DNA from: Bdellovibrionales bacterium
Lineage (GTDB): Bacteria; Bdellovibrionota; Bdellovibrionia; Bdellovibrionales; JAMPXM01
Reading direction: 5' to 3'
Assembly (NCBI GenBank): GCA_043784965.1
Contig: JAYVXS010000165.1
Span: 14,834-78,833 of the forward strand
Length of the DNA stretch: 64,000 bases
This document shows, one piece after another, positions 2,645 to 58,840 of this stretch; position 1 is the stretch's first letter; each line of letters opens with the position of its first letter. The notes below the pieces were generated by a model. It had not been told where the DNA came from. It made no database searches and saw only the letters and a list, made by a program, of their open reading frames with translations. Both the position numbers and the translations under genes were made by a program.

Positions 2645-2703
2645 GCAGTCTGCAATAGGCAATCTACAATAGGCAGTCTGCAATAGGCAGTCTACAATAG
2701 GCA
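2634..2703. repeat. 14-bp tandem repeat x5 (GTCTRCAATAGGCA)
   Basis: Five head-to-tail units read directly. Unit 1 contains the last codons (CTA CAA) and the TAG stop of the beta-lactamase gene. Confidence 0.95.
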
Positions 2704-4271: not shown

Positions 4272-4805
4272 ATGAAAAAACTAATTGGCTTCTTAGCCAT
4301 ATTTGTTGCACAAGGTGCACTTGCTGGAACCTGCCTAATTAAAACTACGGAAACTTATATTTACACCGGTGAGCGAGTCCTATTTTCGCAAATTTCTGTT
4401 CCATCACTTGGGGTCCAGGATTGTGCTCGCAAAGGCCAAGAGACCGCTAACTTTGTGTTTTCAAGCAATATACAAAATTCAGTAGAAGTTCTAACCACTG
4501 CGCAATTTCTCTATAACAACGGCGGCGCCTCACAGAGAATGCAATTTGTTGGTCAATACTTTCAGCTCACCCCACAGTGGGAAGTTATGTATCCCCATCT
4601 CTTGCTTGGTCCTGCGTACTTAGGTCTTTATGCTTCTTATCACTATAGATATTATGGCCACTACCCTGTTGGTCCTCGATATAATCACCCAGAAGTTCGC
4701 ATTCACTTCCAAACTCGCCAGACCAGAGAAGTTCGCATCGTCGAACATCGCACGGTCTACGAAAGAAGTCGTGGTCGTGGCAATGGACATGGCCCGCGAC
4801 GCTAG
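4272..4805 (+). CDS. Secreted hypothetical protein with Tyr/Arg/His-rich C-terminus
   Basis: 177 aa. N-terminal signal peptide (MKKLIGFLAIFVAQGALAG). No family recognised. An intrinsic terminator follows. Confidence 0.55.
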   Translation: MKKLIGFLAIFVAQGALAGTCLIKTTETYIYTGERVLFSQISVPSLGVQDCARKGQETANFVFSSNIQNSVEVLTTAQFLYNNGGASQRMQFVGQYFQLTPQWEVMYPHLLLGPAYLGLYASYHYRYYGHYPVGPRYNHPEVRIHFQTRQTREVRIVEHRTVYERSRGRGNGHGPRR

Positions 4806-4885: not shown

Positions 4886-5033
4886 TTCAGTTTCAGGGCC
4901 GCCGCAACCGATCTCGGTTTTTTAGTTTCAGTACCTGCGCCAGTACCTGTATCTGTCCTGCACCTGTACCTGCACCTGCACCTGTACCTGAAATCTGTTT
5001 AACTGTCTCACCGACCCTGCACTCGGCTTTTTC
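4886..5033 (-). repeat. Dispersed intergenic repeat, copy D (both modules, split by a YACCTG hexamer microsatellite)
   Basis: The reverse complement reads ...GCCGAGTGCAGGGTCGGTGAGACAGTTAAACAGATTTCAGGTACA..(CAGGTR)n..GGTACTGAAACTAAAAAACCGAGATCGGTTGCGGCGGCCCTGAAACTG. This aligns with the copies at 13705, 19935 and 51348. Confidence 0.7.
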
Positions 5034-7746: not shown

Positions 7747-7806
7747 CTTAGTGATAAACTTAGTGATAAACTTAGTGATAATCTTAGTAATAAACTTAGT
7801 GATAAA
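7747..7806. repeat. 12-bp tandem repeat x5 (CTTAGTGATAAA)
   Basis: Five units fill the whole pilW-like / large-ORF intergenic gap. On the coding (-) strand each unit reads TTTATCACTAAG, which carries TAT CAC TAA, the last codons and stop of the pilW-like gene. Confidence 0.95.
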
Positions 7807-13704: not shown

Positions 13705-13838
13705 CTTTTTCTAGTTGTTTAAATGTGGAAACCCCGAGTTCAGGGACGGGGATACAGGCAAACTGTACACACCGACTCACCCAAAACTGGGACCGAAACT
13801 GAAAAACTGCAAGCAGTCGCCGCTGCCGCGAAACTGCC
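13705..13838 (+). repeat. Dispersed intergenic repeat, copy A (5' and 3' modules)
   Basis: CTTTTTCTAGTTGTTTAAATGTGGAAACCCCGAGTTCAGGGACGGGGATACAGGCAAACTG...GGGACCGAAACTGAAAAACTGCAAGCAGTCGCCGCTGCCGCGAAACTG. It aligns with the copies at 4886, 19935 and 51348. Confidence 0.7.
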
Positions 13839-14079
13839 TCTTGATTTCTCTATATAATTAGACCATTAACCAAAAGATGATAGAGCCATAGTGTCGTAGA
13901 ACTTAACCCAGCCCTGAATTCGAGCTGTATTTTCGCTCGATAAAGTAGGCTTGCCCTAGGTACCCATTCCGACCAATATTGCAGCGACCGTCAAAAATTT
14001 TCTGTGCTTTAAAATTTTGCCAGCTTTGCCATCGAGGGATTCTGAGTCGTTCAAATTCACTCCCTTTAAAGCGTGGGTT

Positions 14080-14869: not shown

Positions 14870-14905
14870 GCCAGTATATTGCCAGTATATTGCCAGTATA
14901 TTGCG
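14870..14905. repeat. 11-bp tandem repeat x3.3 (GCCAGTATATT)
   Basis: Read directly. It lies about 230 bp upstream of the 15136 start codon, in the higB / large-gene divergent region. Confidence 0.9.
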
Positions 14906-15135: not shown

Positions 15136-18100
15136 ATGAAGAAATTTTCAAAATCTCCATTACTGATTGCTCTGATCTCACTTTCGATGATGGCATCGAC
15201 TGTGACCTCAAGCTCAGCATATGGTGCAAACACCCCGGCGCAAGACCAAGCCGCCAAGGATAAATTAGCCGCTGAAAAGCTGGCTGCTGAAAAATTAGCT
15301 CAGCAAGAAGCTCAACAAAAAGCTCAGCAAGAAGCTCAACAAAAAGCTCAACAAAAAGCTCAGCAAGAAGCTCAACAAAAAGCTCAACAAAAGGCTCAGC
15401 AAGAAGCTCAACAAAAAGCTCAGCAAGAAGCTCAACAAAAAGCTCAACAAAAAGCTCAGCAAGAAGCTCAACAAAAAGCTCAGCAAAAGGCTCAGCAAGA
15501 AGCTCAACAAAAAGCTCAAGCTGCGAAGCCAGCTCCTCCGGCTCCAGCTCCTCCGGCAAAAGTTGAACCAGTAGTTATCAAGCCAGCTCCAGCTCCAGCG
15601 CCAGTTCCTCCAGTTGCTACCAAGCCAGCTCCTCCGGCTCCAGCTCCACCGGCAAAAGTTGAACAGGTAGTTATCAAGCCAGCTCCGGCGCCAGCGCCAG
15701 TTCCTCCAGTTGCTACCAAGCCAGCTCCTCCGGTAGACAAAGCGGCACAAGAAGCCAAGGCTAAAGCCGATCAAGCTGCTGCTGATAAAGCTAAAGCTGA
15801 TAAACTTGCACGCGAAGCTAAAGAAAAATTGGAGCGCAAGCCCGCTCCGCAAAATCCAGTAGGTCCTCCACCTGTAGTCGTAGCTAAAGCTGAAACTCCA
15901 GCTGAAGTTGCTGCGAAATTAGAGCAATCTAAAAAGCAAACTGCGGCGCAAGCTGCGGCAGAACGAGCTCATAAAGATAAATTAGATCAAGAGATTGCGA
16001 ATCAGGCGGCACAAAAAGCTGCTGATCCAAAAGTAAAAGACGCGCAAAAAGCAAAAGAAGATGCGGCGCAAAAAGCCGCTGATGAAAAAGCTAAAGAAAT
16101 TGCAGCGCAAAAGGCTCAAGAGAGAAAAGCCATTAAAATTGCAGAGCAAGCAAAGCTTCCGGTTGTAGTTAAAACACCACAACAAATTGAAGCAGATGCA
16201 GCAAAGGCAAAAGCGGATGCAATAAAAGCTGCTCAAAAAAAAGAGAAAGCAAAAGAGCGCATTGCTGTACCAGCTAAGACTGCTGAAATAAAAAAAGAAA
16301 ATGAAGTAAAAGCAGCTGAAGTTGAAGTGGCAAAGGTTCAGAAAAAAGAAGTGGTTGCGGTTGCAAAACAGCAAGCCATCCTTGTAAAGCAAAATGCTGA
16401 CATTAAACAAATCAGCCAGAACCCAACTGCCAAAATTACTCCAGCCCAAGAAGCTGTCATTGCGCAAAACAAGAAAACTATTGAGACTCGACAAGCAGCT
16501 CAAGCCAATAAGCCAGTAGTAGCAGCACCAACTCACTCAACTTCAGTTGTTGAATTGAAGACGGTCAATGGCGCTAAAATTGGTCTTGATCCCTCTATTA
16601 AAGTAAAAGTCGTTGTCCCAGTAACTGTTATCGTAAAGCCGGTAGTAGTTGTTGGCGGCGTAGCTGTAGCCAGCCATATGCGATCAGATGAAACCCAGAA
16701 GAATATTCATGAGGCGAGAATTCGCTCTCAGAATACGCAAAATATAATCATCAACAAAACTGACATACAAAGTGTAACCATCACAAAAAACATCACCCAT
16801 GTAACTAATGTTTATGTAAATAATTATCAAAACGTAGTGATTGAACGCTCACGTATTTACAATAATTACTACCATGAACCACAAAAGGTTTATAGAAACT
16901 ACTATAGCAGCTATTACGATCACGGCTTTCGTGGTGGATATGCCTACCCAGTTCGGGTTGACATCGCAATTCACCAGCATTTCTGGAATCCATTAGTATT
17001 GTGGATGTTTGATGATTCAAACAATAACGATTTCTATTGCCGTTATTATGGTAATTCATATTGCTATAGCTACCCAGTTCGTCCATTTCGTTATGCAAGA
17101 GTTTTCTATCCTACCGATACCATGCGAGATCTCGCAATTGAAGTCAGTGGCATGAGCTACTACCGCCATACTTACTATAGAACTGCTCTTGAGACTTTGA
17201 CTGACAAATTAAATAGTCAGATTTCAAATTACGTTTCAGGCAGATTCTATTTCGGACCAAACGATATCGTGATCAATCACTATCGCAATCTTGGCTTCGG
17301 ACAAGTAATGGTCGAAGGTTTCGTAGATCGCGGAAGTTTACATGTGGCCTTCAAAGGGCACCTTGACCTTGAGAATCCATACAACTCAAGCGTTTTCGTA
17401 CCAACCATCAGTGACTACTCGCCAGTTGCTGCTGGCATCGCTGTCCTAAATGCAATTGTTGCTCTTGAGCAAGCTGCCAACGTACGTGAGAATGTTCCTC
17501 AGAACGTGGTTTACGAGGAACCAGCTCCCCCACCAATGCCAGTAGTAAATGTGACTTGCCGTACATTTAGTGGAGATGCTAAGTTTGTTGGAGCCTCGCC
17601 AGATTCAGGTACAGCCTCACAAAGAGCCATCGAGCATTGTACTAAGAGTGCACGTGCAAATGCGACTGAGTGTACAGCGAATATATCTTGCGATGACGGC
17701 GTTTCTTACGCTCCAGTTGTAAGCTGTTCAACGAGCAGCACCGACGCTAACGGAGACGCGGTAAGCTTCTTCCGAAAAGGCCGCGATGCGGATTACGCTT
17801 CACAAATGGCTCAACAGCTTTGTATTGCTGATGATGCGACTAGTGATGTCGATGCTTGTTCAAGCCCGGACAACTTAACTTGTATTGCTTTGGACAAATC
17901 AGTCTTGAATCCAATGGCATGTAACGTGACTGTGCCGAATATTCCGGCGCCATTTAGCTTTCAGAGTTATGATAGCGATAAAGCTCGTAACCGTGCAGTA
18001 TCAGACTGCGTAACTGCAGAAGGCACGGATGTAGACGATTGTAATAACAGCGACTTCTTGAGTTGTGATTATGTCAATGCGGCACCGGTAGAACCACCCC

Positions 18101-18303: not shown

Positions 18304-18340
18304 AGACAGTTTCATTTAGTTTTTCGCAAAGGCAGACCAA

Positions 18341-18369
18341 AGGCAGACTCACAAGTCTGCCTTTTTTTT
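18341..18369 (+). terminator. Rho-independent terminator
   Basis: AGGCAGACT, 4-nt loop, AGTCTGCCT, followed by a T8 run. Confidence 0.8.
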
Positions 18370-19934: not shown

Positions 19935-20139
19935 CTTTTTTTAGTTGATAAAGTGTGGATAAAGTGTGGATAAACTGATCTCAGCGACAGTGAGACGGTT
20001 AAACTGATTTCAGGGGCACTCGTGAGCCCTCAGCCGATCAATTAGCCGCATATTTATATATAATGAGCCACCTATAACTGGGACCGAAACTGAAAAACCG
20101 AGATCAGTAGTTGCTGCCCCTAAACTGCCCCTAAACTGC
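19935..20139 (+). repeat. Dispersed intergenic repeat, copy B (5' module, AT-rich insert, 3' module)
   Basis: TTTTTTAGTTGATAAAGTGTGGATAAAGTGTGGATAAACTGATCTCAGCGACAGTGAGACGGTTAAACTGATTTCAGGGGCA...GGGACCGAAACTGAAAAACCGAGATCAGTAGTTGCTGCCCCTAAACTG. It also contains internal 11-bp duplications at 19947-19975 and 20114-20139. Confidence 0.7.
19954..19973. promoter_or_regulatory. Two tandem perfect DnaA boxes (TGTGGATAA), 11-bp spacing
   Basis: TGTGGATAA is at 19954-19962 and again at 19965-19973. This is the exact complement of the TTATCCACA consensus. Confidence 0.6.
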
Positions 20140-20336
20140 TATACGTAACTGGCAACAAAAAAGGTAGGGCCAACTTCACAAAACCAATCTGCTCTATAGA
20201 ACGAAGCGTAAAAATTTGGTTTAGGTGCCCTCAAAAAATAGTTCATTTTCCAGGCACCCACTTTGACTAAGATTTGAACTCATAGTTGCCAGAATCCCAT
20301 TTGTCAGAACACGCTAAATAGGCTTAGCATCTAGAT

Positions 20337-23414: not shown

Positions 23415-23577
23415 GGGGCCCGTCCAAAAATAAACTGTGCGTTTTCACGAAGTGAATTTTGAAATAAATTGAGGCGGGAGACCGCTTCCTTAGCAGGAAG
23501 CTAAGGGGAGGTCGACCAACGAAAAGTTAATTCAAAATACCAAGTGAAAATGTGCAAGTTATTTTTGGACGGGCCCT
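23415..23577 (+). other. Long imperfect hairpin element (~160 nt), possible structured RNA or MITE
   Basis: An 18-bp perfect outer stem is followed by a 13-bp stem with 3 G-U pairs and two 7-bp stems. An apical 7-bp hairpin is GCTTCCT/AGGAAGC. The element fills the gap between the ABC stop and the SD of the next gene. Confidence 0.6.
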
Positions 23578-25184: not shown

Positions 25185-27086
25185 TTATTTCGATTTTTTC
25201 TGAGTCGCGGCTTTTTCGGTGGCCTTCGCTTTAGACTTTGAGGCTGTTTTCTCAGTCCCCTGGGCTTGTTTTTCCGTCGCCTGTTTTTCAGTCGATTTGA
25301 CAGTCGATTTGACAGTCGAATCTTGGGCCTCTTTAGCCGTGGTTCCCTTTTGCGTGCCCTTATCTTTAGAGCCCTCAAGCTCTTCGTCTACTGGAGCTTC
25401 AAATTCAGTTAGCTCTTCGGTGAGCAATTCACTCTCAACATGGCGCTGATCAAATTTCACCCCAGCTTTGAGGGCTTTTTCTTTCAAAGCTTGCAATCGA
25501 ACCTCAGCAACTGACAGGTCTTTTTCAGCCGCACGTGTGTCTCGACCCAACAGCTTTTTCAAGCCTTCTTCGGCATTTTTTTTGCGTGTCTGATTAGCGC
25601 CGGTAATACGAACCAAGCCCTCAACCAAGATTGGACCGAATTGTTCAATATGGGCCAATTTTCTCTCAAGATCTGCTTCTTTATTTTCTTTGCGAATATG
25701 GCGAGAGAGCTGCTGGCCCGCTTGCATCAATGTACGCCTGATTTCCTCAATGAGCTCATCGGATGCATCTATTGTTTCTTTCGAGGCATTTTTAAACTTA
25801 ATAAATGGCGAGACCACACTAATGGCGAATACATAGGGGCCGGAAGGAATACTATCTTTACCTTGCGCAAGCCCATACGAACGCCAATTGACACTTTCAA
25901 CAGCTTGAGTGATCGCACATGAACTCTTATCAAACTGCAAGGGCACACGATTGGCGAAGCGAAGAAGTTGAATAGATTCATCCATGCTACCTCTGGTTAA
26001 AAACCGGGCCAAGGCCACTTCAACAACGACGGGTTTAAAATCACAAATTCGCGGTTTGCGGGTTACCACTGAGAAGAAATCGATGTCACCAAGTCGCATA
26101 ATACTTTTCGAAAGTGCTTCTTCACCAACAGTAAGTACTGATTTAGTAGAGGGGCTTTGCAATTCAACTTTTTGAATGACCTGAAAAGCAGCTTTAAATT
26201 CGCCTTCCTTCATTTTCATTACCGGCATATTCAACAAAGATTTTGGCATTCCGCCTTTAACGAGATCCTTAATTGTTTGATCACTCACTCGAGAAAAGCC
26301 AGTTTTCAAGAATTTGCCGAAATCAACTTTCCCGAAAAGGTGCGCGTGAGTCATAAATTCGCCAAGCTTCATCGTATGTGGATGCGGCAAAGTACTCTCT
26401 GGAATTTCAGGACAAATATCAGTAACCCGCTTTACCTTCACCCATTCTTGATCGACAACTTTGTAGTCTAAACTCATATGGGGATTTACTAAAGTAGTGC
26501 CCTCTAAATAGGTCAAAAGTCCACCATCACCATTTAATTGAATTCGTCCATCAATACGAAACTCAACACGGGTCCCATGCGGACGATCCCAATCGATGCT
26601 TTCCTTTTTCTTAAGGACACCCTTGTTAGCTTTAATATCGACGTCGACAAGACAACTAATTGCCTTGCGCATATTTTTCTGGATTGTCGTCACCTGCACA
26701 CCCGAAGCATTCGTCAGCTGAGCCCAGGTTGTCGCTGCCGAAATGCCTATACCCTGTTGTCCGCGTGAACATTGGCCTTTACCAAATTTACTAGAGGCCA
26801 GATACTCGCCAAAAACCTTTGCAATATCATCCGGATCAATCCCGGGACCATTATCTTCAACGACGATTTTAATTAGATCAGTTGATTTCGAACTTCCTTC
26901 GCCGATTTTTGTAATTGAAACCTTCAAGTCCGGCAAAATTGAGCTTTCTTCACAGGCATCAAGTGAGTTATCAACGGCCTCTTTAAGAGTCGTCAATACG
27001 GCTTTAAGTGGCGAAGAAAATCCCACCTGTTGCAAATTCTTTGCGAAATACTCCGCGGTACTACTGCTGGTAATTTTTTTTGACAC
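25185..27086 (-). CDS. top6B: DNA topoisomerase VI subunit B (GHKL ATPase)
   Basis: 633 aa. Bergerat-fold motifs are EAVDNSLDA (N box), EDNGPGI (G1) and GQQGIG (G2). A ~90-aa Lys/Glu/Thr-rich C-terminal tail is present. The stop lies 12 nt before the top6A start. Confidence 0.85.
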   Translation of the reverse strand: MSKKITSSSTAEYFAKNLQQVGFSSPLKAVLTTLKEAVDNSLDACEESSILPDLKVSITKIGEGSSKSTDLIKIVVEDNGPGIDPDDIAKVFGEYLASSKFGKGQCSRGQQGIGISAATTWAQLTNASGVQVTTIQKNMRKAISCLVDVDIKANKGVLKKKESIDWDRPHGTRVEFRIDGRIQLNGDGGLLTYLEGTTLVNPHMSLDYKVVDQEWVKVKRVTDICPEIPESTLPHPHTMKLGEFMTHAHLFGKVDFGKFLKTGFSRVSDQTIKDLVKGGMPKSLLNMPVMKMKEGEFKAAFQVIQKVELQSPSTKSVLTVGEEALSKSIMRLGDIDFFSVVTRKPRICDFKPVVVEVALARFLTRGSMDESIQLLRFANRVPLQFDKSSCAITQAVESVNWRSYGLAQGKDSIPSGPYVFAISVVSPFIKFKNASKETIDASDELIEEIRRTLMQAGQQLSRHIRKENKEADLERKLAHIEQFGPILVEGLVRITGANQTRKKNAEEGLKKLLGRDTRAAEKDLSVAEVRLQALKEKALKAGVKFDQRHVESELLTEELTEFEAPVDEELEGSKDKGTQKGTTAKEAQDSTVKSTVKSTEKQATEKQAQGTEKTASKSKAKATEKAATQKKSK

Positions 27087-29386: not shown

Positions 29387-29507
29387 CTTTTACTTGGACC
29401 AAGCAAGCTAGATTTTAGGCCAATCGCCTCGCTAAGAAAAAACTAAGTTAAAAAACTAAAATAAAAATCTAAGATAAAATATCTATTGCGTTAATAGGTA
29501 AATTTTA

Positions 29508-30082: not shown

Positions 30083-30820
30083 ATGTTATTAGGCTCAAGC
30101 CAAAGGTTTTCAGCGCTTGTCGTAGTTATTTTGTTTGTGACTTTTTTAATTCAGGATCCGGCACGAGCCGAGGAAGATGGCATGGGCGCGGTCGATTATA
30201 GCGATAAATCTGAAAGAGTTGAGGCCCATCCAGATAAGTTGCCGGCAAAATCAGCTCCCCATAAACTAGGCCGAAGGGCGGCCGAAAAATATATGGGTCA
30301 GACGTCAGAAGAGAAAGAGCTACGCCGACCGGCTTCACTATCAAAAGAAACCCACTATATGGCTGTCCACATAGGGACATTTGTCGGCGATGACTCCTAC
30401 AAATGGGGCTCTGAGCATGAGAGCAATATTGGCAAACTCAATATGGGAGTCACTTATCGTATTGGCGAATGGGCGAATGCCGCTGATCTCGATTTTCGCG
30501 CGGATTTTTCAACTTTTAATTTAGCGGTGGGTGGGGCGTCCAAACTGAGCCTCTTACCGGTGGTTATTTTCCCGGATGCTTCTAGCCACTTTCCGCTTTA
30601 TTTTGGCGCTGGCGCGGGACCTGGTTTTTATTTGAAGCAAGTTTCAGGTCAGTCGCAGATTTCTTTCGATTATCAACTTTTTTTAGGAGCCCGATTTTTC
30701 AATATTCTCGACAGCACGGGACTTTTTATTGAAGCCGGCATTAAAAATCATTTTCATTTATTATCCAACGGCCAATATGACGGAAGCTTTGTGGCAATTG
30801 GCGCCCTGTTTACATTTTGA
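30083..30820 (+). CDS. Outer-membrane beta-barrel protein (porin-family-like)
   Basis: SD AGGAG and a signal peptide. Alternating amphipathic strands are present, and the C-terminus ends IGALFTF with a terminal Phe. Confidence 0.6.
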   Translation: MLLGSSQRFSALVVVILFVTFLIQDPARAEEDGMGAVDYSDKSERVEAHPDKLPAKSAPHKLGRRAAEKYMGQTSEEKELRRPASLSKETHYMAVHIGTFVGDDSYKWGSEHESNIGKLNMGVTYRIGEWANAADLDFRADFSTFNLAVGGASKLSLLPVVIFPDASSHFPLYFGAGAGPGFYLKQVSGQSQISFDYQLFLGARFFNILDSTGLFIEAGIKNHFHLLSNGQYDGSFVAIGALFTF

Positions 30821-32028
30821 AAATTCATCCCCCCCTCCTTACTGCCGTAGCCCACTGCCTCGAACAAATTTTTGCTCAGGGCTATTATGCGGATAAGGTC
30901 ATCGAACGCGCTTTTAAAGCGAATAAAAAGTGGGGCGTCCGTGACCGAAAATTTATCGCCGAAAATGTTTATGAAATCGTTCGCTGGTGGAGGTTCATTT
31001 GGGTCGTCCTCGATGAGCCGGTTGATCTTTCTGAGTATTCCCTTAAGAAATTGGCCCTCGCCTATTTCTATATTTCCAAGAAAGATCTTGAAGTAAATGC
31101 TTTCGTCGACGCCTTCAGACTAGATGAACGTAAAATTAAGAATATCATCGAAAATAAAAACTTTACCGACGCTGAAACTCACTCGGTTCCGGAGTGGCTT
31201 TACGATCTCGGAAAAAAAGAGTTGGGTCCCAAATGGAATTCGATACTTGAGGCGCTAAATCTGCAAGCGCCAGTTATCTTAAGAACAAATACTTTGCGTA
31301 CGACTCCCGAAGCTTTGCGTGCAAAACTTGTTACCGAAGAGTTTGAAGTGCAAATCTTGAAGAATCCTCCTGGTGCTCTGAAGCTTCTACAGCGAAAGAA
31401 CATCTTTCTCTCTGAGGCATTTAAACTGGGACATTTTGAAATTCAAGATGGCTCAAGCCAAATGATCGCGCCGCTTTTAGATCTTAAGCCGGGAATGCGA
31501 GTCATTGATGCCTGTGCTGGCGCTGGAGGTAAAGCTCTTCATGCCGCAGCACTTATGAAAAATAAGGGCCGTATTATTGCCCTCGACATTCATGAGAAAA
31601 AACTTGCCGAACTTAAAAAGCGATCCGCTCGTGCCGGCTGCGATGTTATTGAAATGAAACTTATTGAAGGCAGTAAGACAATCAAACGTCTAGAATCCTC
31701 AGCCGATCGAGTGCTACTTGATGTCCCCTGTTCGGGTCTCGGCGCGCTTCGCAGGAACCCTGATAGCAAATGGAAACTCAGTCTAGAGCGCATTGAAGAG
31801 CTCCGACAAATCCAAGCTGATATTCTTCAAACCTATACGGTGATGGTAAAGCCTGGTGGCTTGGTCCTCTATGCCACTTGCAGTATTTTGCCGAGTGAGA
31901 ATGAGCTACAAGTTAAAAACTTTTTGGCGAATAACAAAAACTTTAAGTTAGAGACTGAGAAGCATTTTTGGCCTGGAGAAAATGATTTCGATGGTTTTTA
32001 CGCTGCACAACTTCGTCGACTCACTTGA
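30817..32028 (+). CDS. rsmB: 16S rRNA m5C methyltransferase (RsmB/NOL1-NOP2-Sun family)
   Basis: NusB-like N-terminal domain. The SAM motif is DACAGAGGK. The catalytic motifs are DVPCSGLGALRRNPD and YATCS. The TTG start overlaps the upstream stop. Confidence 0.75.
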   Translation: MKIHPPLLTAVAHCLEQIFAQGYYADKVIERAFKANKKWGVRDRKFIAENVYEIVRWWRFIWVVLDEPVDLSEYSLKKLALAYFYISKKDLEVNAFVDAFRLDERKIKNIIENKNFTDAETHSVPEWLYDLGKKELGPKWNSILEALNLQAPVILRTNTLRTTPEALRAKLVTEEFEVQILKNPPGALKLLQRKNIFLSEAFKLGHFEIQDGSSQMIAPLLDLKPGMRVIDACAGAGGKALHAAALMKNKGRIIALDIHEKKLAELKKRSARAGCDVIEMKLIEGSKTIKRLESSADRVLLDVPCSGLGALRRNPDSKWKLSLERIEELRQIQADILQTYTVMVKPGGLVLYATCSILPSENELQVKNFLANNKNFKLETEKHFWPGENDFDGFYAAQLRRLT

Positions 32029-32037
32029 ATTCAGAGA

Positions 32038-32135
32038 TTCAGGGTCTCAGGGACTGGCAACCTGAGGCCTGAAACCTGAGGTCTGAAACCTGAGACGGAG
32101 ACTGGCAAACCGCTGCGGCTGCGGCTGCCTTGGAT
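32038..32135 (+). repeat. Left direct repeat (98 bp) flanking the four-helix-bundle gene pair
   Basis: TTCAGGGTCTCAGGGACTGGCAACCTGAGGCCTGAAACCTGAGGTCTGAAACCTGAGACGGAGACTGGCAAACCGCTGCGGCTGCGGCTGCCTTGGAT. It is identical to 32851-32934 except for one extra 14-nt unit and one substitution. Confidence 0.95.
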
Positions 32136-32141
32136 CACTTT

Positions 32142-32438
32142 TCATTTCATCTTGGTTAATTTATAGATCATCCCACCCAATTGATCAGCCAGTTTGAAAG
32201 ATTCTTTTTGCTCTAGTATCGTCAGCAAGGTCTGCACTTCTTTTAAGCTAGCATACGAAATCGCATAAAATCTTGCGCGCTCTTTTGCACTTGGTCGTGC
32301 CGATCCCTCAGTTAAATTTAAGACCACGCTTAAGCTTGCTCGCTCAAGCTGATCTTTTAAAAAGGCCTTGGCTTTGATGTGCTCACATCTTTTGTAAAGC
32401 TGCAATGCCATTTGGTAACTTCTGAAATCTTTTAACAT
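32142..32438 (-). CDS. Four-helix-bundle protein (23S rRNA intervening-sequence protein / Avd family)
   Basis: 98 aa. ...LKDQLERASLSVVLNLTEGSARPSAKERARFYAISYASLKEVQTLL matches the family signature (NIAEG.g r.s.ke...fl.iA.GS..E). Confidence 0.75.
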   Translation of the reverse strand: MLKDFRSYQMALQLYKRCEHIKAKAFLKDQLERASLSVVLNLTEGSARPSAKERARFYAISYASLKEVQTLLTILEQKESFKLADQLGGMIYKLTKMK

Positions 32439-32446
32439 ATAAATTC

Positions 32447-32541
32447 CTTTCGGTGGTGGCGATTTTAATTTGAAAAATCGCGGTTCTTAGTCGCAAGCGA
32501 AACCGCGATTTTTCAAATTAAAATCGCCACAACCGAAAGGA
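32447..32541. repeat. Near-perfect palindrome (40-bp arms, 1 mismatch, 15-nt loop) at the symmetry axis of the inverted gene pair
   Basis: CCTTTCGGTGGTGGCGATTTTAATTTGAAAAATCGCGGTT, loop CTTAGTCGCAAGCGA, AACCGCGATTTTTCAAATTAAAATCGCCACAACCGAAAGG. Confidence 0.95.
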
Positions 32542-32548
32542 TCACATT

Positions 32549-32844
32549 ATGTTAGAGAATTTCAGATCATACCAAATGGCATTGCAGCTTTACAAAAAAT
32601 GTCGGGAACAAAAATTACCAAGATTTTAAAAGATCAGCTTGAAAGAGCTTCAAGCTGTGTGGTCTTAAATTTGAGCGAAGGCTCGGCACGAGTTTCAAAG
32701 AAAGAGCGCGCGAGATTTTATGTGATTGCATTTGCGAGCTTAAGAGAAGTTCAAGCTCTGATTGAGATGGAGGAAGGCCTAAAAGATTTGAATCCACTTG
32801 CGGATATATTGGGTGCTCATTTGTATAAATTGACGCGAAACTAA
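32549..32844 (+). pseudogene. Four-helix-bundle protein paralog, frameshifted
   Basis: ATG 32549 gives MLENFRSYQMALQLYKKCREQKLPRF*. The remainder (KILKDQLERASSCVVLNLSEGSARVSKKERARFYVIAFASLREVQ...) continues in another frame. This amounts to a 1-nt deletion relative to the paralog near 32620. Confidence 0.65.
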
Positions 32845-32850
32845 TAAAAT

Positions 32851-32934
32851 TTCAGGGTCTCAGGGACTGGCAACCTGAGGCCTGAAACCTGAGACGGAGA
32901 CTGGCAAACCGCTGCGGCTGCGGCTGCCTCGGAT
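32851..32934 (+). repeat. Right direct repeat (84 bp) flanking the four-helix-bundle gene pair
   Basis: Same sequence and orientation as 32038-32135, minus one CTGAGGTCTGAAAC unit. Confidence 0.95.
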
Positions 32935-32947
32935 TTCTTCGGTTTTC

Positions 32948-33850
32948 CTAGCTCAAAGTTGGTTGCTTTAGAGCTCGGTAGAAAATTTCACTAACATGTG
33001 AATTTTGTTCCGTCTTTCGTAGGTAATAGTTAACGTTGATCGAGTATTTTAAATCCGTTACCTCGACATTTATTAGGCGTCCGGCGCGCACTTGTTTTTT
33101 TATGCTATGTGAAGGTAAAAAACCCCAACCCAGACCACTTTCAATCACTTTTTTAATCGTACCAACGTTGTTACTTTCAAAAACTGGCTTTAGCTTAATA
33201 TTTTGCCTTACAAGTTCTAAGCGCAATTTTTCACTGAAACTTGAATTTCGCTCTGAAAACCGAACGAATGGCTTGAGATTCAGTTCCTTAACCGAAATCG
33301 ATTGCGGCAAACCCATTTCTTTATTTGAGGCGACTAGCCAAACCTCATCTTTCATTAATTCTCGAATTTCAAGACCTACTGGCTTCAATCCATATTCTGC
33401 CTCAACCTCAGGCAAAATAGCAGCGTCAAGCTCACCCTTTTCAAGTGCTTTAAAAATAGAAACTCCATCTTCATACATAAGGGCCATATTAATCTTAGCA
33501 TTATGTCTCAAAAAAGTTCCAACTAATGGACCAAGTATATACAAACCAAGAGAATTAAGTGTGCCGATACGAAGAGATCCTTGAACTCCCTCTCCGATCG
33601 TTTGAATGGCGACTTGAGCCTGCTGGGTAAGTGCGATAATTTTTTTGGCATATTCGTATAGCAACTGCCCTTGAATTGTGGCTCGTGCCTGTCTCGTTCC
33701 ACGAACAAGTAACTCAACCCCAGTCTCTTCTTCAAGATTTCGAATCTGCTGACTTACTGCTGGCTGAGTGAGATAAAGCTTCTCTGCTGCAGCTGTCATG
33801 CTCCCCTCAGAAATCACGGTCGTAAAAGTTACGAGTTGCTGTAAATTCAC
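32948..33850 (-). CDS. LysR-family transcriptional regulator
   Basis: The N-terminal wHTH is LQQLVTFTTVISEGSMTAAAEKLYLTQPAVSQQIRNLEEETGVELL. A ~300-aa LysR substrate-binding layout follows. Confidence 0.85.
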   Translation of the reverse strand: MNLQQLVTFTTVISEGSMTAAAEKLYLTQPAVSQQIRNLEEETGVELLVRGTRQARATIQGQLLYEYAKKIIALTQQAQVAIQTIGEGVQGSLRIGTLNSLGLYILGPLVGTFLRHNAKINMALMYEDGVSIFKALEKGELDAAILPEVEAEYGLKPVGLEIRELMKDEVWLVASNKEMGLPQSISVKELNLKPFVRFSERNSSFSEKLRLELVRQNIKLKPVFESNNVGTIKKVIESGLGWGFLPSHSIKKQVRAGRLINVEVTDLKYSINVNYYLRKTEQNSHVSEIFYRALKQPTLS

Positions 33851-44363: not shown

Positions 44364-44463
44364 ATTCAGGGTCGGGCAAACCGCAAACTGAAGACAGAGA
44401 CAGATTCAGGCTACTGAAATCAGCGGCGACTGCCTAGGAATTCGTCATAGGAATTCGTCATAG
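44364..44463 (+). repeat. Dispersed-repeat variant (copy G) plus 13-bp tandem duplication (TAGGAATTCGTCA x2.2)
   Basis: ATTCAGGGTCGGGCAAACCGCAAACTGAAGACAGAGACAGATTCAGGCTACTGAAATCAGCGGCGACTGCC shares the words CAGGGNC, GAGAC, GGCAAAC and CTGAAA and the GC-rich tail with the other copies. It lies in the cmk-rpsA spacer. Confidence 0.55.
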
Positions 44464-47721: not shown

Positions 47722-49235
47722 ACTCATCATTTACAAATGCAGACCTCGGTTTTTCAGTTCAGTGGAGTAAAGCACTGAAACTATTGTTGACAGAATTTTC
47801 GCCAGCGGCATTGACCACAACAAATGGATCGGCCGTGCACATCGAAGCGCTTAGTGTTGCAGATTTAAGCCTCTCTGCCTGTGCGCGCTTTTGTCATCAA
47901 TATTTAAAAATGAAAAATGGTGACCTGGCGATCGTCAATGATCCATCGTCAGGCGGCAGCTCATTGAGTGAAGTTTGTTTAGTGAAAGCAATTTTGCTTT
48001 CTACTAAATCTAGTCCAGATCTTAATGCCGACTTTCTGCTGTCGATTCGCTTTAATTTGGGTGGCAGTAGCGATCCGTCGGCAGCCTTTCATAGCTTGAG
48101 AATTCCGCCTACTCCGATTGCTGCGAAAAATGAATTGAACCATGAAATTCTTGCGGCGATTGGCTCCCACCCGGGCGCTTCCTTTGAATTCTTAGAGAAG
48201 CTGAAAGAAAATATTATAAAATTGAACGCTTTAGAACAGCAATTATTGAGGCTCAGAACCCTACCTGGCTTAAGCTTTAGTATGGATCAACTTGATTTCT
48301 ATTTTGATTCAACAAAAAAATCTTTACTCTCCTGGATATCAAAAAATCTTTCGAACGGCGATTTTCATTTTCAACATAAGCTCTCTACAGGGGAACTCAT
48401 CAAGCTGAGAATTGAATGCAAAGAGAATGAAAATATCTTATTTGATTTTATTGGAACGGCTCAATCTGATAGCTTTCAATTAACTGAATTTATGAGTTTT
48501 GCGGCTTGCTTCGCGGCCCTTGAGTCGCTTTTAAACATTGAACTCCCGGCCAATCAGGGCAGTTTTTCAGCCCTGCAACTACGCACCCCACAAAACTCAA
48601 TGCTCAATGCCAAACAGATCAAAAATTCATATATGGCGAGTCGCTTTCATCTTAAAGAGCTTTGCGGATTTTTGCGATCAAGTTTACTAAAGCTAAGTCG
48701 TTCAGGAAAGAATTTCGCTTCAGACTCTGAAGGAATTGGACCCTGCTCGATTGCCTTCAATGCTAAATGCATTTGGGATTTTGATTTGCCTGGCGGCCAG
48801 GGCGGGAGTAGCGAGAAACAGGGCGAACAGGTATTCTCAATTTGGGCAAATCAGCTTTTTACAACTCAGTCTAAATGTGATATTTTTTCAGTTGAAAAAA
48901 CGGAAAGAAAGTTTGCTTTGCAGTTTCAAAATATCAGCAAGCACTCACACTTTCTTGGTAAGGGAATTCATAACGGCGGGGGCGGAATGCAAATGAGTTT
49001 TCTGGTCTTGAAAGAAGCCGAATTTAATATGGTAGCGCCCCAGTTAAAAAATCGAGCGGCTGGTCAATCGGGCGGGAAATCCGGCGAGAAATCAGAAGTT
49101 TCTATTGAGTTCAATGATTCAAAAACTGAAGTCATTGTGAATCATAAGCAAAGGCTTGAGGCGAAAACCTTATTACGCTTTTCCTCAGGTGGAGGCGGCG
49201 GCTGGGGCGATGAAAAAATTGAAGAAGATGAGTAG
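47718..49235 (+). CDS. Hydantoinase B/oxoprolinase (HyuB)-like protein, divergent
   Basis: 505 aa. IVNDPSSGGSSLSEV compares with the canonical NDPY.GGTHLPD. The C-terminal SSGGGGGWGDE compares with GGGGGyGdP. Confidence 0.55.
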   Translation: MNSSFTNADLGFSVQWSKALKLLLTEFSPAALTTTNGSAVHIEALSVADLSLSACARFCHQYLKMKNGDLAIVNDPSSGGSSLSEVCLVKAILLSTKSSPDLNADFLLSIRFNLGGSSDPSAAFHSLRIPPTPIAAKNELNHEILAAIGSHPGASFEFLEKLKENIIKLNALEQQLLRLRTLPGLSFSMDQLDFYFDSTKKSLLSWISKNLSNGDFHFQHKLSTGELIKLRIECKENENILFDFIGTAQSDSFQLTEFMSFAACFAALESLLNIELPANQGSFSALQLRTPQNSMLNAKQIKNSYMASRFHLKELCGFLRSSLLKLSRSGKNFASDSEGIGPCSIAFNAKCIWDFDLPGGQGGSSEKQGEQVFSIWANQLFTTQSKCDIFSVEKTERKFALQFQNISKHSHFLGKGIHNGGGGMQMSFLVLKEAEFNMVAPQLKNRAAGQSGGKSGEKSEVSIEFNDSKTEVIVNHKQRLEAKTLLRFSSGGGGGWGDEKIEEDE

Positions 49236-51347: not shown

Positions 51348-51428
51348 GGCCCTGCCCCTGAAATCAGTTTGCCGGTCTCACTGTCCCTGTTCTCAGGTTT
51401 TCCACATTTTACTAAGTAAAAAAAACCA
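51348..51428 (-). repeat. Dispersed intergenic repeat, copy C (5' module only)
   Basis: The reverse complement reads GGTTTTTTTTACTTAGTAAAATGTGGAAAACCTGAGAACAGGGACAGTGAGACCGGCAAACTGATTTCAGGGGCAGGGCC. It lies immediately downstream of tpiA. Confidence 0.7.
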
Positions 51429-57591: not shown

Positions 57592-58812
57592 ATGCCCATA
57601 TTTGAATATCGTGGCTTAAATCAGGCGGGCAAGAATCTGCGCGGCACCATAGACGCCGAAAATTTACGTACGGCACGTTCAAAGCTTAAAAAAGATGGCA
57701 TTTTTGTTGTTGACCTCAAGGATAAAGGTAAAGAACAACTCAAGAACAAGAAAAAATCTGGAAGCGGAAAAAAGATCAGCATCGACGAACTCTCGATGAT
57801 GACCAGACAGCTTGCCACTCTAATCAAAGCTAAAATCCCTCTGGTTGAGTCACTAGCTGCGGTCAGCGACCAAGTTGAAAATGAAACCTTAAAAGAGGCA
57901 ACGGCTGATATCAAAAATATGGTAAATGAAGGTGCCCCCTTTTACAAAAGCCTTGCGAAATACCCAAAACTTTTTGATCACATTTACGTAACGATGTGTG
58001 AAGCCGGTGAAGCAACCGGAAATCTAGATGTCATTCTGGTAAGACTTGCTGAATTTAAAGAGGCACAAAATGAGCTCAATTCAAAAGTGAAGTCGGCGAT
58101 TCTCTATCCATTGATCATGTTTATTTTTACTTTAGCCATGCTGGCGGTGATTTTTATTTTCGTCATTCCAAAATTGACTTCAATTTTCGAGAGTGCCGAA
58201 ATGGAACTGCCCTGGTATACACTGGTCGTAATAAATTTCAGCAGTATCTTGGTTAACTATTGGCACGTGATATTAGTTATTATGTTTGGCGCCTACTTTT
58301 CATTTCAAACCTGGAAGGTCTCGACAGAGGGCTCTAAAACATACGATGCAATTCTTTTGAAAATTCCGGTCATTGGCAAACTGGTCAGACTGGTTGCCGT
58401 TTCAAGATTCACGCGAACACTCGCGACACTTTTGCAGGGCGGAGTGCCCATGTTGTCTGCGATGGACATCGTATCAAATGTGGTCGGCAATCACGTATTA
58501 GCCGTGGCCATCATTCAAGCTAGAGATAATATCTCTGAAGGAGAATCCATTGCAGGTCCCTTAAAAAAATCGCAACAATTTCCGCCCATTGTTACTCATA
58601 TGATTAACATTGGAGAAAAAACCGGCGAGCTAGAGAATATGCTGACGCAGGTCAGCGACTCATATGATTTTCAAGTTAAAACCCAAATTCAAGGTTTAAC
58701 AGCCTTGCTTGAACCCGTTATGATCATTATGATGGGTCTGGTAATTGGTGTGATTGTGTTTTCAATTATGCTGCCGATGTTTGATATGGCGAATTTGGGC
58801 GGCAATGGTTAG
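57592..58812 (+). CDS. gspF: Type II secretion inner-membrane platform protein GspF
   Basis: 406 aa with the duplicated GspF/PilC domain and three TM segments. Confidence 0.9.
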   Translation: MPIFEYRGLNQAGKNLRGTIDAENLRTARSKLKKDGIFVVDLKDKGKEQLKNKKKSGSGKKISIDELSMMTRQLATLIKAKIPLVESLAAVSDQVENETLKEATADIKNMVNEGAPFYKSLAKYPKLFDHIYVTMCEAGEATGNLDVILVRLAEFKEAQNELNSKVKSAILYPLIMFIFTLAMLAVIFIFVIPKLTSIFESAEMELPWYTLVVINFSSILVNYWHVILVIMFGAYFSFQTWKVSTEGSKTYDAILLKIPVIGKLVRLVAVSRFTRTLATLLQGGVPMLSAMDIVSNVVGNHVLAVAIIQARDNISEGESIAGPLKKSQQFPPIVTHMINIGEKTGELENMLTQVSDSYDFQVKTQIQGLTALLEPVMIIMMGLVIGVIVFSIMLPMFDMANLGGNG

Positions 58813-58840
58813 GCAATGGTTAGGCAATGGTTAGGCAATG
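58801..58840. repeat. 11-bp tandem repeat x3.6 (GGCAATGGTTA)
   Basis: Unit 1 is the last three codons of gspF plus TA of its TAG stop (GGC AAT GGT TAG). The units repeat head to tail. Confidence 0.95.

What the first reader, a model, noticed from the sequence alone, without database searches (positions are those of the whole stretch)
32038..32934. Inverted pair of four-helix-bundle (Avd / 23S-IVS-protein family) genes bracketed by near-identical direct repeats
Two paralogs face away from each other, symmetrically about 55 nt from a central palindrome: 32142-32438 (-) and 32549-32844 (+, frameshifted). By eye the proteins have diverged to roughly 55-60% identity. In contrast, the flanking 84/98-bp sequences are in direct orientation and differ only by one 14-nt unit and one substitution, and they belong to the dispersed repeat family. 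The layout is DR, gene, hairpin, gene, DR. It looks like a discrete cassette inserted between rsmB and a LysR gene, excisable by DR recombination. This protein family includes the DGR accessory protein Avd and the ORFs found in 23S rRNA intervening sequences. Its cellular role outside DGRs is unknown, so a self-contained cassette is a good handle on function or mobility.
Basis: partly seen in the sequence, partly recalled or inferred. Interest (0 to 1): 0.6.

Follow-up and report, generated by a model that had tools for sequence, protein, structure and literature searches.

The report
Hairpin-linked four-helix-bundle gene cassette
This is one copy of a small cassette found in many copies in predatory Bdellovibrio-like bacteria: one or two genes for a four-helix-bundle protein of unknown function, with their ribosome-binding sites locked in a perfect DNA palindrome, which gives a concrete handle on what this widespread protein family does outside retroelements.

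Summary
Two PF05635 genes lie head-to-head: A at 32142-32438(-) is intact, and B at 32549-32844(+) is broken by loss of one T. They share a 97-nt perfect palindrome and are bracketed by 98-nt and 84-nt direct repeats (DRs).

The 919-nt segment is absent from the rsmB-LysR junction in relatives, where the two stop codons are 5 or 10 nt apart. The same A/B + palindrome + DR unit sits at unrelated sites in other Bdellovibrionota genomes. There is no evidence for excision through the DRs.

Across about 170 related loci:
- The head-to-head pair is the dominant layout (76 pairs, 34 singles).
- The palindrome always runs from one Shine-Dalgarno sequence (SD) to the other, changes sequence by compensatory changes, and its loop flips between copies.
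- A and B are ancient, co-inherited paralogs under strong purifying selection (dN/dS 0.03-0.07).
- The flanks are arrays with a 7-nt period.
- No reverse transcriptase, transposase or integrase is linked.
- In other lineages, near-identical copies show terminal inverted repeats, and in one case target-site duplications.

Best reading: a non-autonomous, selfish-type cassette related to the ORF-bearing intervening sequences (IVSs) of 23S rRNA. The mobility mechanism, expression and protein function remain inferred. I rate it a new variant of a known kind.

The parts
32029..32947 (.). Whole cassette: the indel relative to empty rsmB-LysR junctions in relatives
   Evidence: L173 (10-nt spacer) and L087 (5-nt spacer) lack all of it. 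Homology to the L002 cassette, which lies at another locus, spans 32076-32936.
32038..32135 (+). DR1: left flanking direct repeat (98 nt). It consists of 7-nt-period word units followed by a GC-rich hairpin block, ...CTGGCAAACCGCTGCGGCTGCGGCTGCCTTGGAT, and carries one extra 14-nt unit.
   Evidence: The junction to rsmB is confirmed by Logan contig L092.
32142..32438 (-). Gene A: intact 98-aa PF05635 four-helix-bundle protein (A-type paralog)
   Evidence: Pfam 58.4 bits. AF2 model pLDDT 95.5 with four helices; best PDB matches 2GSC (TM 0.85) and 2RLD. dN/dS about 0.03-0.05 against orthologs.
32445..32541 (.). Shared palindrome: arms 32445-32485 and 32501-32541, asymmetric 15-nt loop 32486-32500. 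It contains the SD of A (TCCTTT, 32445-32450, read on the - strand) and the SD of B (AAAGGA, 32536-32541).
   Evidence: -65 kcal/mol, z -13. Family-wide data.
32549..32844 (+). Gene B: B-type PF05635 paralog. It is interrupted by loss of one T in the run 32624-32627, giving an in-frame TAA at 32627-32629.
   Evidence: The gene is intact (T5) in the 99.4%-identical MAG contig L090.
32851..32934 (+). DR2: right flanking direct repeat (84 nt)
   Evidence: Identical in L090. Logan contig L001 breaks inside it.
30817..32028 (+). Flanking host gene rsmB (not part of the cassette)
   Evidence: Pfam Methyltr_RsmB-F
32948..33850 (-). Flanking host gene, a LysR-type regulator (not part of the cassette)
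   Evidence: Pfam HTH_1 + LysR_substrate

Best explanation
Positions 32029-32947 are one copy of a family of small (0.4-1 kb) genetic cassettes. The family carries no recombinase, is multi-copy, and is essentially confined to Bdellovibrionota.

**Core unit (shown).** A PF05635 four-helix-bundle gene whose Shine-Dalgarno sequence forms the foot of a long, perfectly Watson-Crick hairpin.

**Commonest form, as here (shown).** Two anciently diverged paralogs (A and B) sit head-to-head and share one palindrome that runs from SD to SD. The unit is bracketed by arrays with a 7-nt period. In this sub-lineage the arrays begin with a conserved GC-rich hairpin block and lie in direct orientation.

**Also shown.**
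- The unit is absent from this site in relatives and present at unrelated sites elsewhere.
- Both proteins are under strong purifying selection.
- The palindrome arms co-vary and the loop flips between copies.
- No reverse transcriptase, transposase or integrase travels with the unit.

**Inferred.**
1. The cassette is a non-autonomous, selfish-type element mobilised in trans. In other lineages this looks like transposition with terminal inverted repeats and target duplications. How this sub-lineage, with its direct terminal repeats, moves is unresolved.
2. The arms are kept perfect by intramolecular recombination or gene conversion between them. That process also flips the loop.
3. In transcripts that cross the palindrome, the hairpin hides both SDs and offers an RNase III-type substrate. 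This would keep the proteins tightly limited, as in the rRNA intervening sequences that carry the same ORF.
4. The conserved flanking arrays are cis sites, either insulator/terminator modules or binding sites for the toroidal protein, rather than neutral duplications.
For: **Presence/absence and dispersal**
- Empty sites: L173 and L087. L174 has an unrelated 255-nt spacer at the same junction.
- The same architecture occurs between unrelated genes in L002, L005, L010/L091 and others.
- Copy number: at least 10 loci in MAG GFS_7426 and at least 7 in chromosome OZ253553.1. Many contigs end inside the palindrome.
- Layout counts: 35 pairs and 20 singles in genomes; 41 pairs and 14 singles in metagenomes.

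**Palindrome**
- It runs SD to SD at every pair, and singles keep the hairpin.
- The SD is paired in 57 of 63 units, median z -6.4.
- Pairs have a median 28.5-bp ungapped perfect stem, a loop of about 13 nt, and 6 nt to the ATG. Only 28 of 1142 stem positions are mismatched, and only 2 are G.U.
- In five close loci, 22 of 40 pairs show compensatory double changes.
- The loop is inverted between the window and L002, and between L020 and L021.

**Proteins**
- A and B are old, co-inherited paralogs.
- dN/dS is 0.03-0.07 with synonymous sites saturated. The DR block and the 29-nt hairpin centre are nonetheless conserved.

**Flanks and neighbours**
- Flanks of 212 genes show a lag-7 periodicity of 0.335 against 0.255 in controls.
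- No neighbouring gene family recurs across about 160 loci, and there are no relatives in viral contigs.

**Young copies at different sites**
- L022/L023: 97.7% identical over 957 nt, with 6-7-bp flanking duplications (AACCTTG; TCCGTG) and a TCTCCCTC terminal inverted repeat.
- L152/L153: 97.3% over 865 nt, with GCYCAAAATCA inverted ends.
- OZ253553.1 singles: about 17-nt inverted ends, TAACTSATCTTAYGCA.

**Literature parallel**
- The Coxiella 23S IVS is described as a selfish element carrying the same ORF family. Its SD lies in the RNase III-cut stem, and tandem heptameric repeats of variable number lie next to the ORF (PMC4990558).
Against: - No terminal inverted repeat or target duplication is detectable for the window's own copy.
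- Copies of its sub-lineage (window, L002, L005, L010) have saturated synonymous sites relative to one another. For this sub-lineage, relocation is inferred only from different genomic contexts plus the empty sites.
- The genomes with empty sites are themselves distant (pS about 0.8), so repeated loss cannot be excluded formally.
- Strong purifying selection on both proteins means they serve a function. It need not be a selfish one.
- No trans-acting mobilising enzyme has been identified.
- No sigma-70-like promoter is enriched upstream of the units or inside the partner gene. Whether the hairpin is ever present in mRNA is unknown.
- The near absence of G.U pairs fits a DNA-level constraint at least as well as an RNA-level one.
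Confidence: 0.55

Rival explanations
1. The cassette moves as a circle of about 800 nt (A, DR, B, hairpin). The circle is excised by recombination between the two DRs and re-integrated by homologous or site-specific recombination at other members of a dispersed repeat family. The DRs are attL/attR-like.
For: - DR1 and DR2 are 99% identical and direct.
- DR orientation relative to A and B is the same in the window, L002, L005, L010 and L091.
- Homology between cassettes at different loci includes both DRs.
- Solo arrays of the same word family exist: L013 2413-2479 and several in the window.
- L067 has two pairs in tandem.
Against: - The empty sites (L173, L087) contain no DR copy.
- Other arrays in the window are only about 60-77% similar, too diverged for efficient homologous recombination.
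- No integrase is linked.
- An exact DR search in metagenome contigs found nothing.
- Many pairs have no detectable flanking DR.
- Young copies in other lineages show inverted ends and short target duplications instead.
Confidence: 0.15
2. The cassette is not mobile. It is an ordinary, ancient, vertically inherited family of small paralogous nucleic-acid-binding or regulatory proteins. The palindrome is a shared divergent regulatory region, and the scattered positions reflect old duplications, rearrangements and differential loss.
For: - dN/dS is 0.03-0.07 and synonymous sites are saturated between copies.
- The A/B split is deep and co-inherited.
- There is no linked mobility gene.
- Homology among old copies ends exactly at the functional parts, hairpin plus ORF. 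This is what selection alone would leave.
Against: - Copies that are 97-98% identical sit in unrelated flanks with sharp boundaries, inverted ends and target duplications.
- There are 7 to 10 or more copies per genome, and assemblies break at them.
- Three species-level relatives have empty sites with nearly abutting stop codons.
- The partner gene decays frequently.
Confidence: 0.17
3. It is a remnant or satellite of a diversity-generating retroelement. A and B act as Avd-like cofactors of a reverse transcriptase encoded elsewhere, and the DRs are template/variable-type repeats or LTR-like products of reverse transcription.
For: - PF05635 is the Avd family.
- Direct terminal repeats that are near-identical in a young copy and diverged in older ones resemble LTR behaviour.
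Against: - No reverse transcriptase lies within 2.5-4 kb of any of about 160 loci.
- The DRs are non-coding, and their differences (one T/C change and a 14-nt unit) are not adenine-specific.
- There are no relatives in viral contigs.
- The best structural matches are the free-standing S23p-type proteins 2GSC and 2RLD, not Avd.
Confidence: 0.04
4. It is an assembly artefact. The DRs or the inverted pair were created by mis-assembly of a repeat.
For: The source is probably a short-read MAG. Related contigs often break at the palindrome and at the DRs.
Against: - Independent assemblies confirm the rsmB-DR1 junction, the B-DR2-LysR junction and the palindrome-B junction.
- The same architecture recurs in dozens of unrelated assemblies, including a closed 2.9-Mb chromosome.
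Confidence: 0.02

Closest known systems
ORF-bearing intervening sequences (IVS) of 23S rRNA (Coxiella burnetii, Leptospira, Xanthomonas; S23p ORF)
   Same: - The same protein family (PF05635; best structural match 2GSC/2RLD).
- A small selfish-type unit with sporadic distribution.
- A long perfect stem that includes the SD.
- Tandem heptameric repeats of variable number next to the ORF (PMC4990558).
- An ORF that is prone to decay.
   Different: - Here the unit lies between protein-coding genes, not in helix 25/45 of 23S rRNA.
- The stem-loop lies wholly 5' of the ORF instead of enclosing it.
- Two diverged paralogs share one palindrome head-to-head.
- The flanks are direct, not inverted.
- The proteins are under strong purifying selection, whereas the Coxiella ORF is reported as decaying and probably untranslated.
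Avd, the accessory protein of diversity-generating retroelements
   Same: Homologous four-helix-bundle fold and family. It is presumably a basic oligomer that binds nucleic acid.
   Different: There is no reverse transcriptase, no template/variable repeat pair and no adenine mutagenesis signature. The family is not phage-borne.
MITEs and mobile insertion cassettes (MICs): non-autonomous IS derivatives carrying passenger genes
   Same: - Small, multi-copy and intergenic, with no transposase.
- In related lineages, terminal inverted repeats (8-17 nt), and in one case 6-7-bp target duplications.
   Different: - The window's sub-lineage shows direct terminal repeats and no detectable inverted ends.
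- The passenger is always the same gene family, with its own conserved hairpin.
- Inverted ends differ between lineages, and no matching transposase is known.
REP/BIME/REPIN-type intergenic repeats
   Same: The flanking word arrays are short-period, GC-hairpin-containing, dispersed intergenic repeats. They are mostly found at gene 3' ends.
   Different: They are degenerate 7-nt-period arrays rather than a defined 20-40-nt palindrome. No RAYT transposase was examined. Here they are tied to a protein-coding cassette.
Integron gene cassettes (ORF + attC hairpin)
   Same: A promoter-poor small ORF coupled to a hairpin of about 60-140 nt whose structure, not sequence, is conserved.
   Different: The hairpin is 5' of the ORF, perfectly paired and includes the SD. 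There is no integrase or array platform, and the cargo is invariant.

Membership tests
PF05635 / S23p / 23S rRNA IVS protein (four-helix-bundle) family | Match to the Pfam model above the gathering score | tested here: met
   A scores 58.4 bits and repaired B 48.1 bits, against a cut-off of 33.8.
PF05635 / S23p / 23S rRNA IVS protein (four-helix-bundle) family | Up-down four-helix-bundle fold like the solved members | tested here: met
   AF2 model pLDDT 95.5 with four helices. Foldseek: 2GSC TM 0.85, 2RLD TM 0.80-0.82. Sequence profile hit to 2GSC, E 1e-8.
PF05635 / S23p / 23S rRNA IVS protein (four-helix-bundle) family | Homopentameric toroid | not testable with these tools
   Only monomer prediction is available. 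The oligomeric state of A, of B, or of an A/B hetero-oligomer is unknown.
rRNA intervening sequence (IVS) element | Inserted in a 23S (or 16S) rRNA helix and excised from the precursor by RNase III | tested here: not met
   The unit lies between rsmB and a LysR gene. Rfam finds no rRNA here, only sub-threshold generic hairpin models.
rRNA intervening sequence (IVS) element | Terminal inverted repeats forming a stem that encloses the ORF | tested here: not met
   The flanks are direct repeats, and no inverted pair between the flanks was found. The long stem is internal, 5' of both ORFs. Some relatives (L080, L048, OZ253553.1 singles) do have inverted flanks.
Diversity-generating retroelement | Adjacent reverse transcriptase | tested here: not met
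   No gene family other than PF05635 itself recurs in the flanks of about 160 loci. The called neighbours of L002, L005, L091 and L173 are housekeeping genes.
Diversity-generating retroelement | Template/variable repeat pair differing at adenines, with the variable copy at the 3' end of a target gene | tested here: not met
   The only repeats are the non-coding DRs. They differ by one T/C change and one 14-nt unit.
MITE / mobile insertion cassette | Terminal inverted repeats | tested here: not met
   Window copy: none with a seed of 9 nt or more. The best manual match is 7/11, which is not significant. Relatives do meet this feature: L022/L023, L152/L153 and the OZ253553.1 singles.
MITE / mobile insertion cassette | Short target-site duplication | tested here: inconclusive
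   Window: the empty-site relatives are too diverged to define the junction to the base. L022/L023 have 6-7-bp duplications that differ between the two copies.
MITE / mobile insertion cassette | Multi-copy, no transposase of its own, insertion polymorphism | tested here: met
   copy number; no transposase; empty sites.
Integron gene cassette | attC imperfect palindrome 3' of the ORF, with an intI integrase / attI platform | tested here: not met
   The hairpin is 5' of the ORF, perfect and contains the SD. No integrase was found in the flanks.

The most novel reading that the evidence does not exclude
The PF05635 proteins may themselves be the element-encoded mobility or maintenance factor. In this reading, a toroidal four-helix-bundle oligomer (possibly an A/B hetero-oligomer) recognises the heptad arrays and the perfect hairpin. 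Together they would form a self-contained mobile unit without a transposase. It would propagate through hairpin or fold-back DNA intermediates, which would explain loop flip-flop, fresh inverted duplications such as L048, and terminal redundancy like that of an 800-nt circle. This would explain how the same ORF comes to sit inside rRNA intervening sequences, and why an Avd homolog was recruited by retroelements.
Probability: 0.1. Interest if true: 0.9.

Novelty: new variant of a known kind. Interest (0 to 1): 0.62.

Why it matters
PF05635 proteins are very common in bacterial genomes. They are known only as Avd in diversity-generating retroelements and as the unexplained ORF of rRNA intervening sequences. 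Papers I could find still call the free-standing members functionally uncharacterised (PMC11270868, PMC4990558, PMC10053308).

This locus, and the roughly 170 relatives recovered here, show a conserved cis-architecture around the gene:
- an SD-to-SD perfect palindrome with a flipping loop;
- 7-nt-period flanking arrays;
- co-inherited A/B paralogs under strong selection;
- insertion polymorphism.

That converts a vague 'hypothetical protein' into specific, testable hypotheses about what the protein binds, how it is controlled and how the unit spreads. It also links the free-standing genes to the rRNA IVS elements, through the shared SD-in-stem and heptamer repeats.

Tried and rejected
1. **Antisense promoter inside the partner gene.** The window has TTGTAA-18-TATGAT at 32595->32566, but only 3 of 108 family genes have such a site. 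Rejected as a general feature.
2. **Conserved sigma-70 promoter upstream of the units.** Only about 11 of 95 have any match, with no positional peak.
3. **Central palindrome or DRs as canonical intrinsic terminators.** The palindrome has a U-rich 5' arm and an A-rich 3' arm on both strands. The DRs were not called by the terminator scan.
4. **Known RNA family.** Only sub-threshold miRNA-precursor-type hairpin models matched.
5. **Whole-cassette RNA fold-back as a selected feature.** Partner nucleotide identity outside the centre (about 72%) is no higher than expected from 64% amino-acid identity.
6. **Exact DR search in metagenome contigs.** No match. An exact look-up of protein A in the contig index also returned nothing.
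7. **Linked RT, transposase or integrase.** None found. Viral contigs: none.
8. **Recent inverted duplication as the origin of the pair.** Rejected for A/B, which are old paralogs. It does occur in L048, a B/B pair at 94% identity with inverted flanks.
9. **Spacer similarity.** The window's residual spacer (ATTCAG...GGTTTTC) resembles the L173 empty spacer (ATCAGGTTTT). This was noted but not relied on, because the two lineages are saturated at synonymous sites.
Full report
**1. The observation**

- rsmB ends at 32028, and a LysR-type gene on the minus strand ends at 32948.
- Between them lie, in order:
  - DR1 at 32038-32135;
  - gene A at 32142-32438(-);
  - a palindrome at 32445-32541 (41-nt arms, 98% complementary, 15-nt loop);
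  - gene B at 32549-32844(+);
  - DR2 at 32851-32934.
- DR1 and DR2 are direct repeats. They are identical apart from one extra 14-nt unit in DR1 and one T/C difference. Thirty-mers from them occur nowhere else in the window, with a chance expectation of 0.
- Both genes match PF05635 above the gathering score. They are 64% identical as proteins.
- B is interrupted at codon 27 because a T5 run is T4 at 32624-32627.
- The palindrome folds at -65 kcal/mol, z = -13. The DRs fold modestly, z about -2.5.

The arrangement is not an assembly artefact.
- Logan contigs from SRR23617254 independently join rsmB to the first 39 nt of the cassette and LysR to DR2, and break inside the repeat as a real repeat should.
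- An independent MAG contig (L090, GCA_031392825.1, 99.4% identical) carries the same palindrome-B-DR2-LysR sequence.
- In L090 gene B is intact (T5). The frameshift in the window is therefore a recent polymorphism or an assembly error.

**2. It is a cassette**

Three species-level relatives have a different rsmB-LysR junction.
- L173 (MAG GFS_7426): the two stop codons are 10 nt apart.
- L087: they are 5 nt apart.
- L174: an unrelated 255-nt spacer.
- None of the three contains a four-helix gene or a DR copy.
- These relatives are distant. Synonymous sites are saturated, with pS about 0.8. The comparison shows gain or loss of the whole 919-nt block but cannot date it.

The same architecture lies at unrelated sites elsewhere.
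- The architecture is array, B(-), palindrome, A(+), array.
- In L002 it lies between a hypothetical gene and a DUF4399 gene.
- In L005 it lies between an outer-membrane protein gene and RNase E/G.
- In L010 and L091 it lies downstream of a flagellin gene.
- Homology between the window and L002 spans 32076-32936, so it includes both flanking repeats.

**3. The family**

- Scans of species-representative genomes and of metagenomes returned 160 loci. Nearly all named ones are Bdellovibrionota: Bdellovibrionales, Bacteriovoracaceae and Oligoflexia.
- Copy number is high, with at least 10 loci in GFS_7426 and at least 7 in the closed chromosome OZ253553.1. Many contigs end in the palindrome.
- Among loci with enough flank, 35 + 41 are head-to-head pairs and 20 + 14 are singles.
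- Partners are 42-65% identical, whereas each has closer relatives at other loci. One partner repeatedly carries the B-type signature (…KLP.F…ASSS…IDME…) and the other the A-type (…KAKA…ASLS…LxIL.Q…). The pair is therefore old and inherited as a pair.
- Both are under strong purifying selection, with dN/dS 0.03-0.07 and synonymous sites saturated between the window and L002.
- The AF2 model of A is a confident four-helix bundle (pLDDT 95.5). Its best PDB matches are the pentameric S23p-type proteins 2GSC (TM 0.85) and 2RLD (sequence hit).

**4. The palindrome is the most regular feature**

- In every pair, the interval between the two start codons is an almost perfect palindrome running from one SD to the other. 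It has AT-rich outer arms, a GC-rich inner stem and a loop of about 13 nt. Its sequence is unrelated between distant loci.
- Singles keep a complete hairpin of the same design with no partner gene.
- The SD is paired in 57 of 63 units, median z -6.4.
- Pairs have a median 28.5-bp ungapped perfect stem ending 6 nt from the ATG. Only 28 of 1142 stem positions are mismatched, and only 2 are G.U.
- Among five close loci, 22 of 40 pairs show compensatory double changes and almost no single-sided ones.
- The asymmetric loop is inverted relative to the genes between the window and L002, and between L020 and L021, which are two copies in one genome.
- Perfect Watson-Crick symmetry plus loop flip-flop is what recombination or gene conversion between the arms produces.
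- Persistence of the hairpin in singles argues that it is also functionally required. SD masking is the obvious consequence if it is transcribed.
- I could not find a conserved sigma-70-type promoter upstream or inside the partner gene. How the genes are transcribed remains open.

**5. The flanks**

- The DRs consist of degenerate 7-nt words (GTTTGCC, GTCTCAG, GTTTCAG… on the A-sense strand). The words are preceded by a GC-rich hairpin block, ATCCRAGGCAGCCGC…GCGG.
- The orientation of this block relative to A and B is the same in the window, L002, L005, L010 and L091.
- Across 212 family genes, the 90 nt beyond the stop codon show a lag-7 autocorrelation of 0.335 against 0.255 in controls. The controls were mostly coding sequence.
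- Clear flanking direct repeats are present in only a subset of pairs. One pair (L048, a recent B/B duplication) has inverted flanks.
- A DR block of about 30 nt and the 29-nt hairpin centre are conserved between the window and L002, although their synonymous sites are saturated. These non-coding parts are therefore under selection and are not neutral target duplications.
- DR1 and DR2 are 99% identical to each other. That points to recent duplication or to conversion between them.
- Loosely similar solo arrays occur elsewhere in the window and in L013.

**6. Mobility**

- No gene family other than PF05635 recurs in the flanks. There is no reverse transcriptase, transposase or integrase, and there are no relatives in viral contigs.
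- Only young copies are informative about element ends:
  - L022/L023, from the same MAG, are 97.7% identical over 957 nt. They have sharp boundaries, 6-7-bp flanking duplications that differ between the copies (AACCTTG; TCCGTG) and a short inverted terminus TCTCCCTC.
  - L152/L153 are 97.3% identical over 865 nt, with GCYCAAAATCA inverted ends.
  - The singles of OZ253553.1 have about 17-nt inverted ends.
- These features point to trans-mobilised, MITE- or MIC-like behaviour in those lineages.
- The window's sub-lineage shows direct terminal repeats and no detectable inverted ends. Its mechanism is unresolved. Candidates are a circle or Campbell-type route, duplication of a target array, or conversion.
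- Old copies share only hairpin plus ORF. That is what selection alone would leave, so it says nothing about element ends.

**7. Comparison with what is known**

- The closest described thing is the ORF-bearing 23S rRNA intervening sequence. The Coxiella IVS is called a selfish element and encodes an S23p (PF05635) ORF. Its SD lies inside the stem cut by RNase III, and tandem heptameric repeats of variable number lie next to the ORF (PMC4990558).
- The present cassette shares the protein, the SD-in-stem and the heptad repeats. It differs in four ways:
  - it is not in rRNA;
  - its stem does not enclose the ORF;
  - it is typically a two-gene head-to-head unit;
  - its proteins are clearly maintained by selection.
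- It is not a DGR, because there is no RT and no template/variable repeats. It is not an integron cassette.
- Papers found here still describe free-standing family members as uncharacterised. I found no description of this architecture, within the limits of the searchable library.

**8. Verdict**

'Excisable by DR recombination' is untested and is not what the empty sites show.
- I rate it a new variant of a known kind: IVS-type or MITE-like selfish cassettes carrying a PF05635 gene.
- Interest is moderately high, because the conserved cis-architecture makes the function of this large orphan protein family experimentally approachable.

Noticed in passing
window 2634-2703, 7747-7806, 14870-14904, 18327-18348, 19947-19974, 20114-20139, 25289-25319, 29437-29479, 44435-44463, 49066-49093, 58801-58840: There are many short intergenic tandem arrays with unit lengths of 11-14 nt and unrelated unit sequences. 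This looks like a genome-wide habit of this organism.
   Followed up: partly
window 13778-13857, 20069-20148, 4888-4935(-), 19960-20018, 51353-51411(-), 47734-47759: A loose dispersed family of intergenic 'word' repeats (CTGAAAC, TGAGAC, GGCAAAC, CAGGGAC…), 70-83% alike. The cassette's DRs resemble it in style but are not copies of it.
   Followed up: partly
window 15238-15733: Long in-frame coding repeats: a 12-nt unit x about 19 copies, then a 96-nt unit x 2.2 copies, in a proline/alanine-rich protein.
   Followed up: no
window 23416-23448 / 23544-23576: A 33-nt inverted repeat (85% complementary) with arms 95 nt apart. It was not examined.
   Followed up: no
L048 3613-4294: A B-type/B-type head-to-head pair, 94% identical, whose flanks are inverted (score 78). 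This is apparently a recent fold-back duplication of a single unit around its hairpin.
   Followed up: partly
L067 936-2497: Two complete head-to-head pairs in tandem on one contig.
   Followed up: no
L137, L144, L160, L168: Tail-to-tail (+ then -) arrangements of two family genes, a third layout besides singles and head-to-head pairs.
   Followed up: no
L068 3734-3864, 4317-4409, 4434-4559; L046 5332-5641; L079 3841-3987, 4378-4524: In chromosome OZ253553.1 the units sit among copies of another hairpin-containing repeat family of about 130 nt, forming repeat nests.
   Followed up: no
L057 about 4400-4480; L072 about 4400-4470: Two single units lie immediately next to tRNA genes (read by eye from the sequence; not run through ARAGORN).
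   Followed up: no
L088 1805-1846: In a relative whose RsmB is 85% identical, rsmB is followed by a DR-like GC block in the opposite orientation to the window's DR1, and then the contig ends. This may be an independent or inverted cassette at the same site.
   Followed up: partly
window 30817-30820 / 30083-30820: The 245-aa ORF upstream of rsmB overlaps the rsmB start by 4 nt. The same gene pair is conserved in L087, L092 and L173.
   Followed up: no
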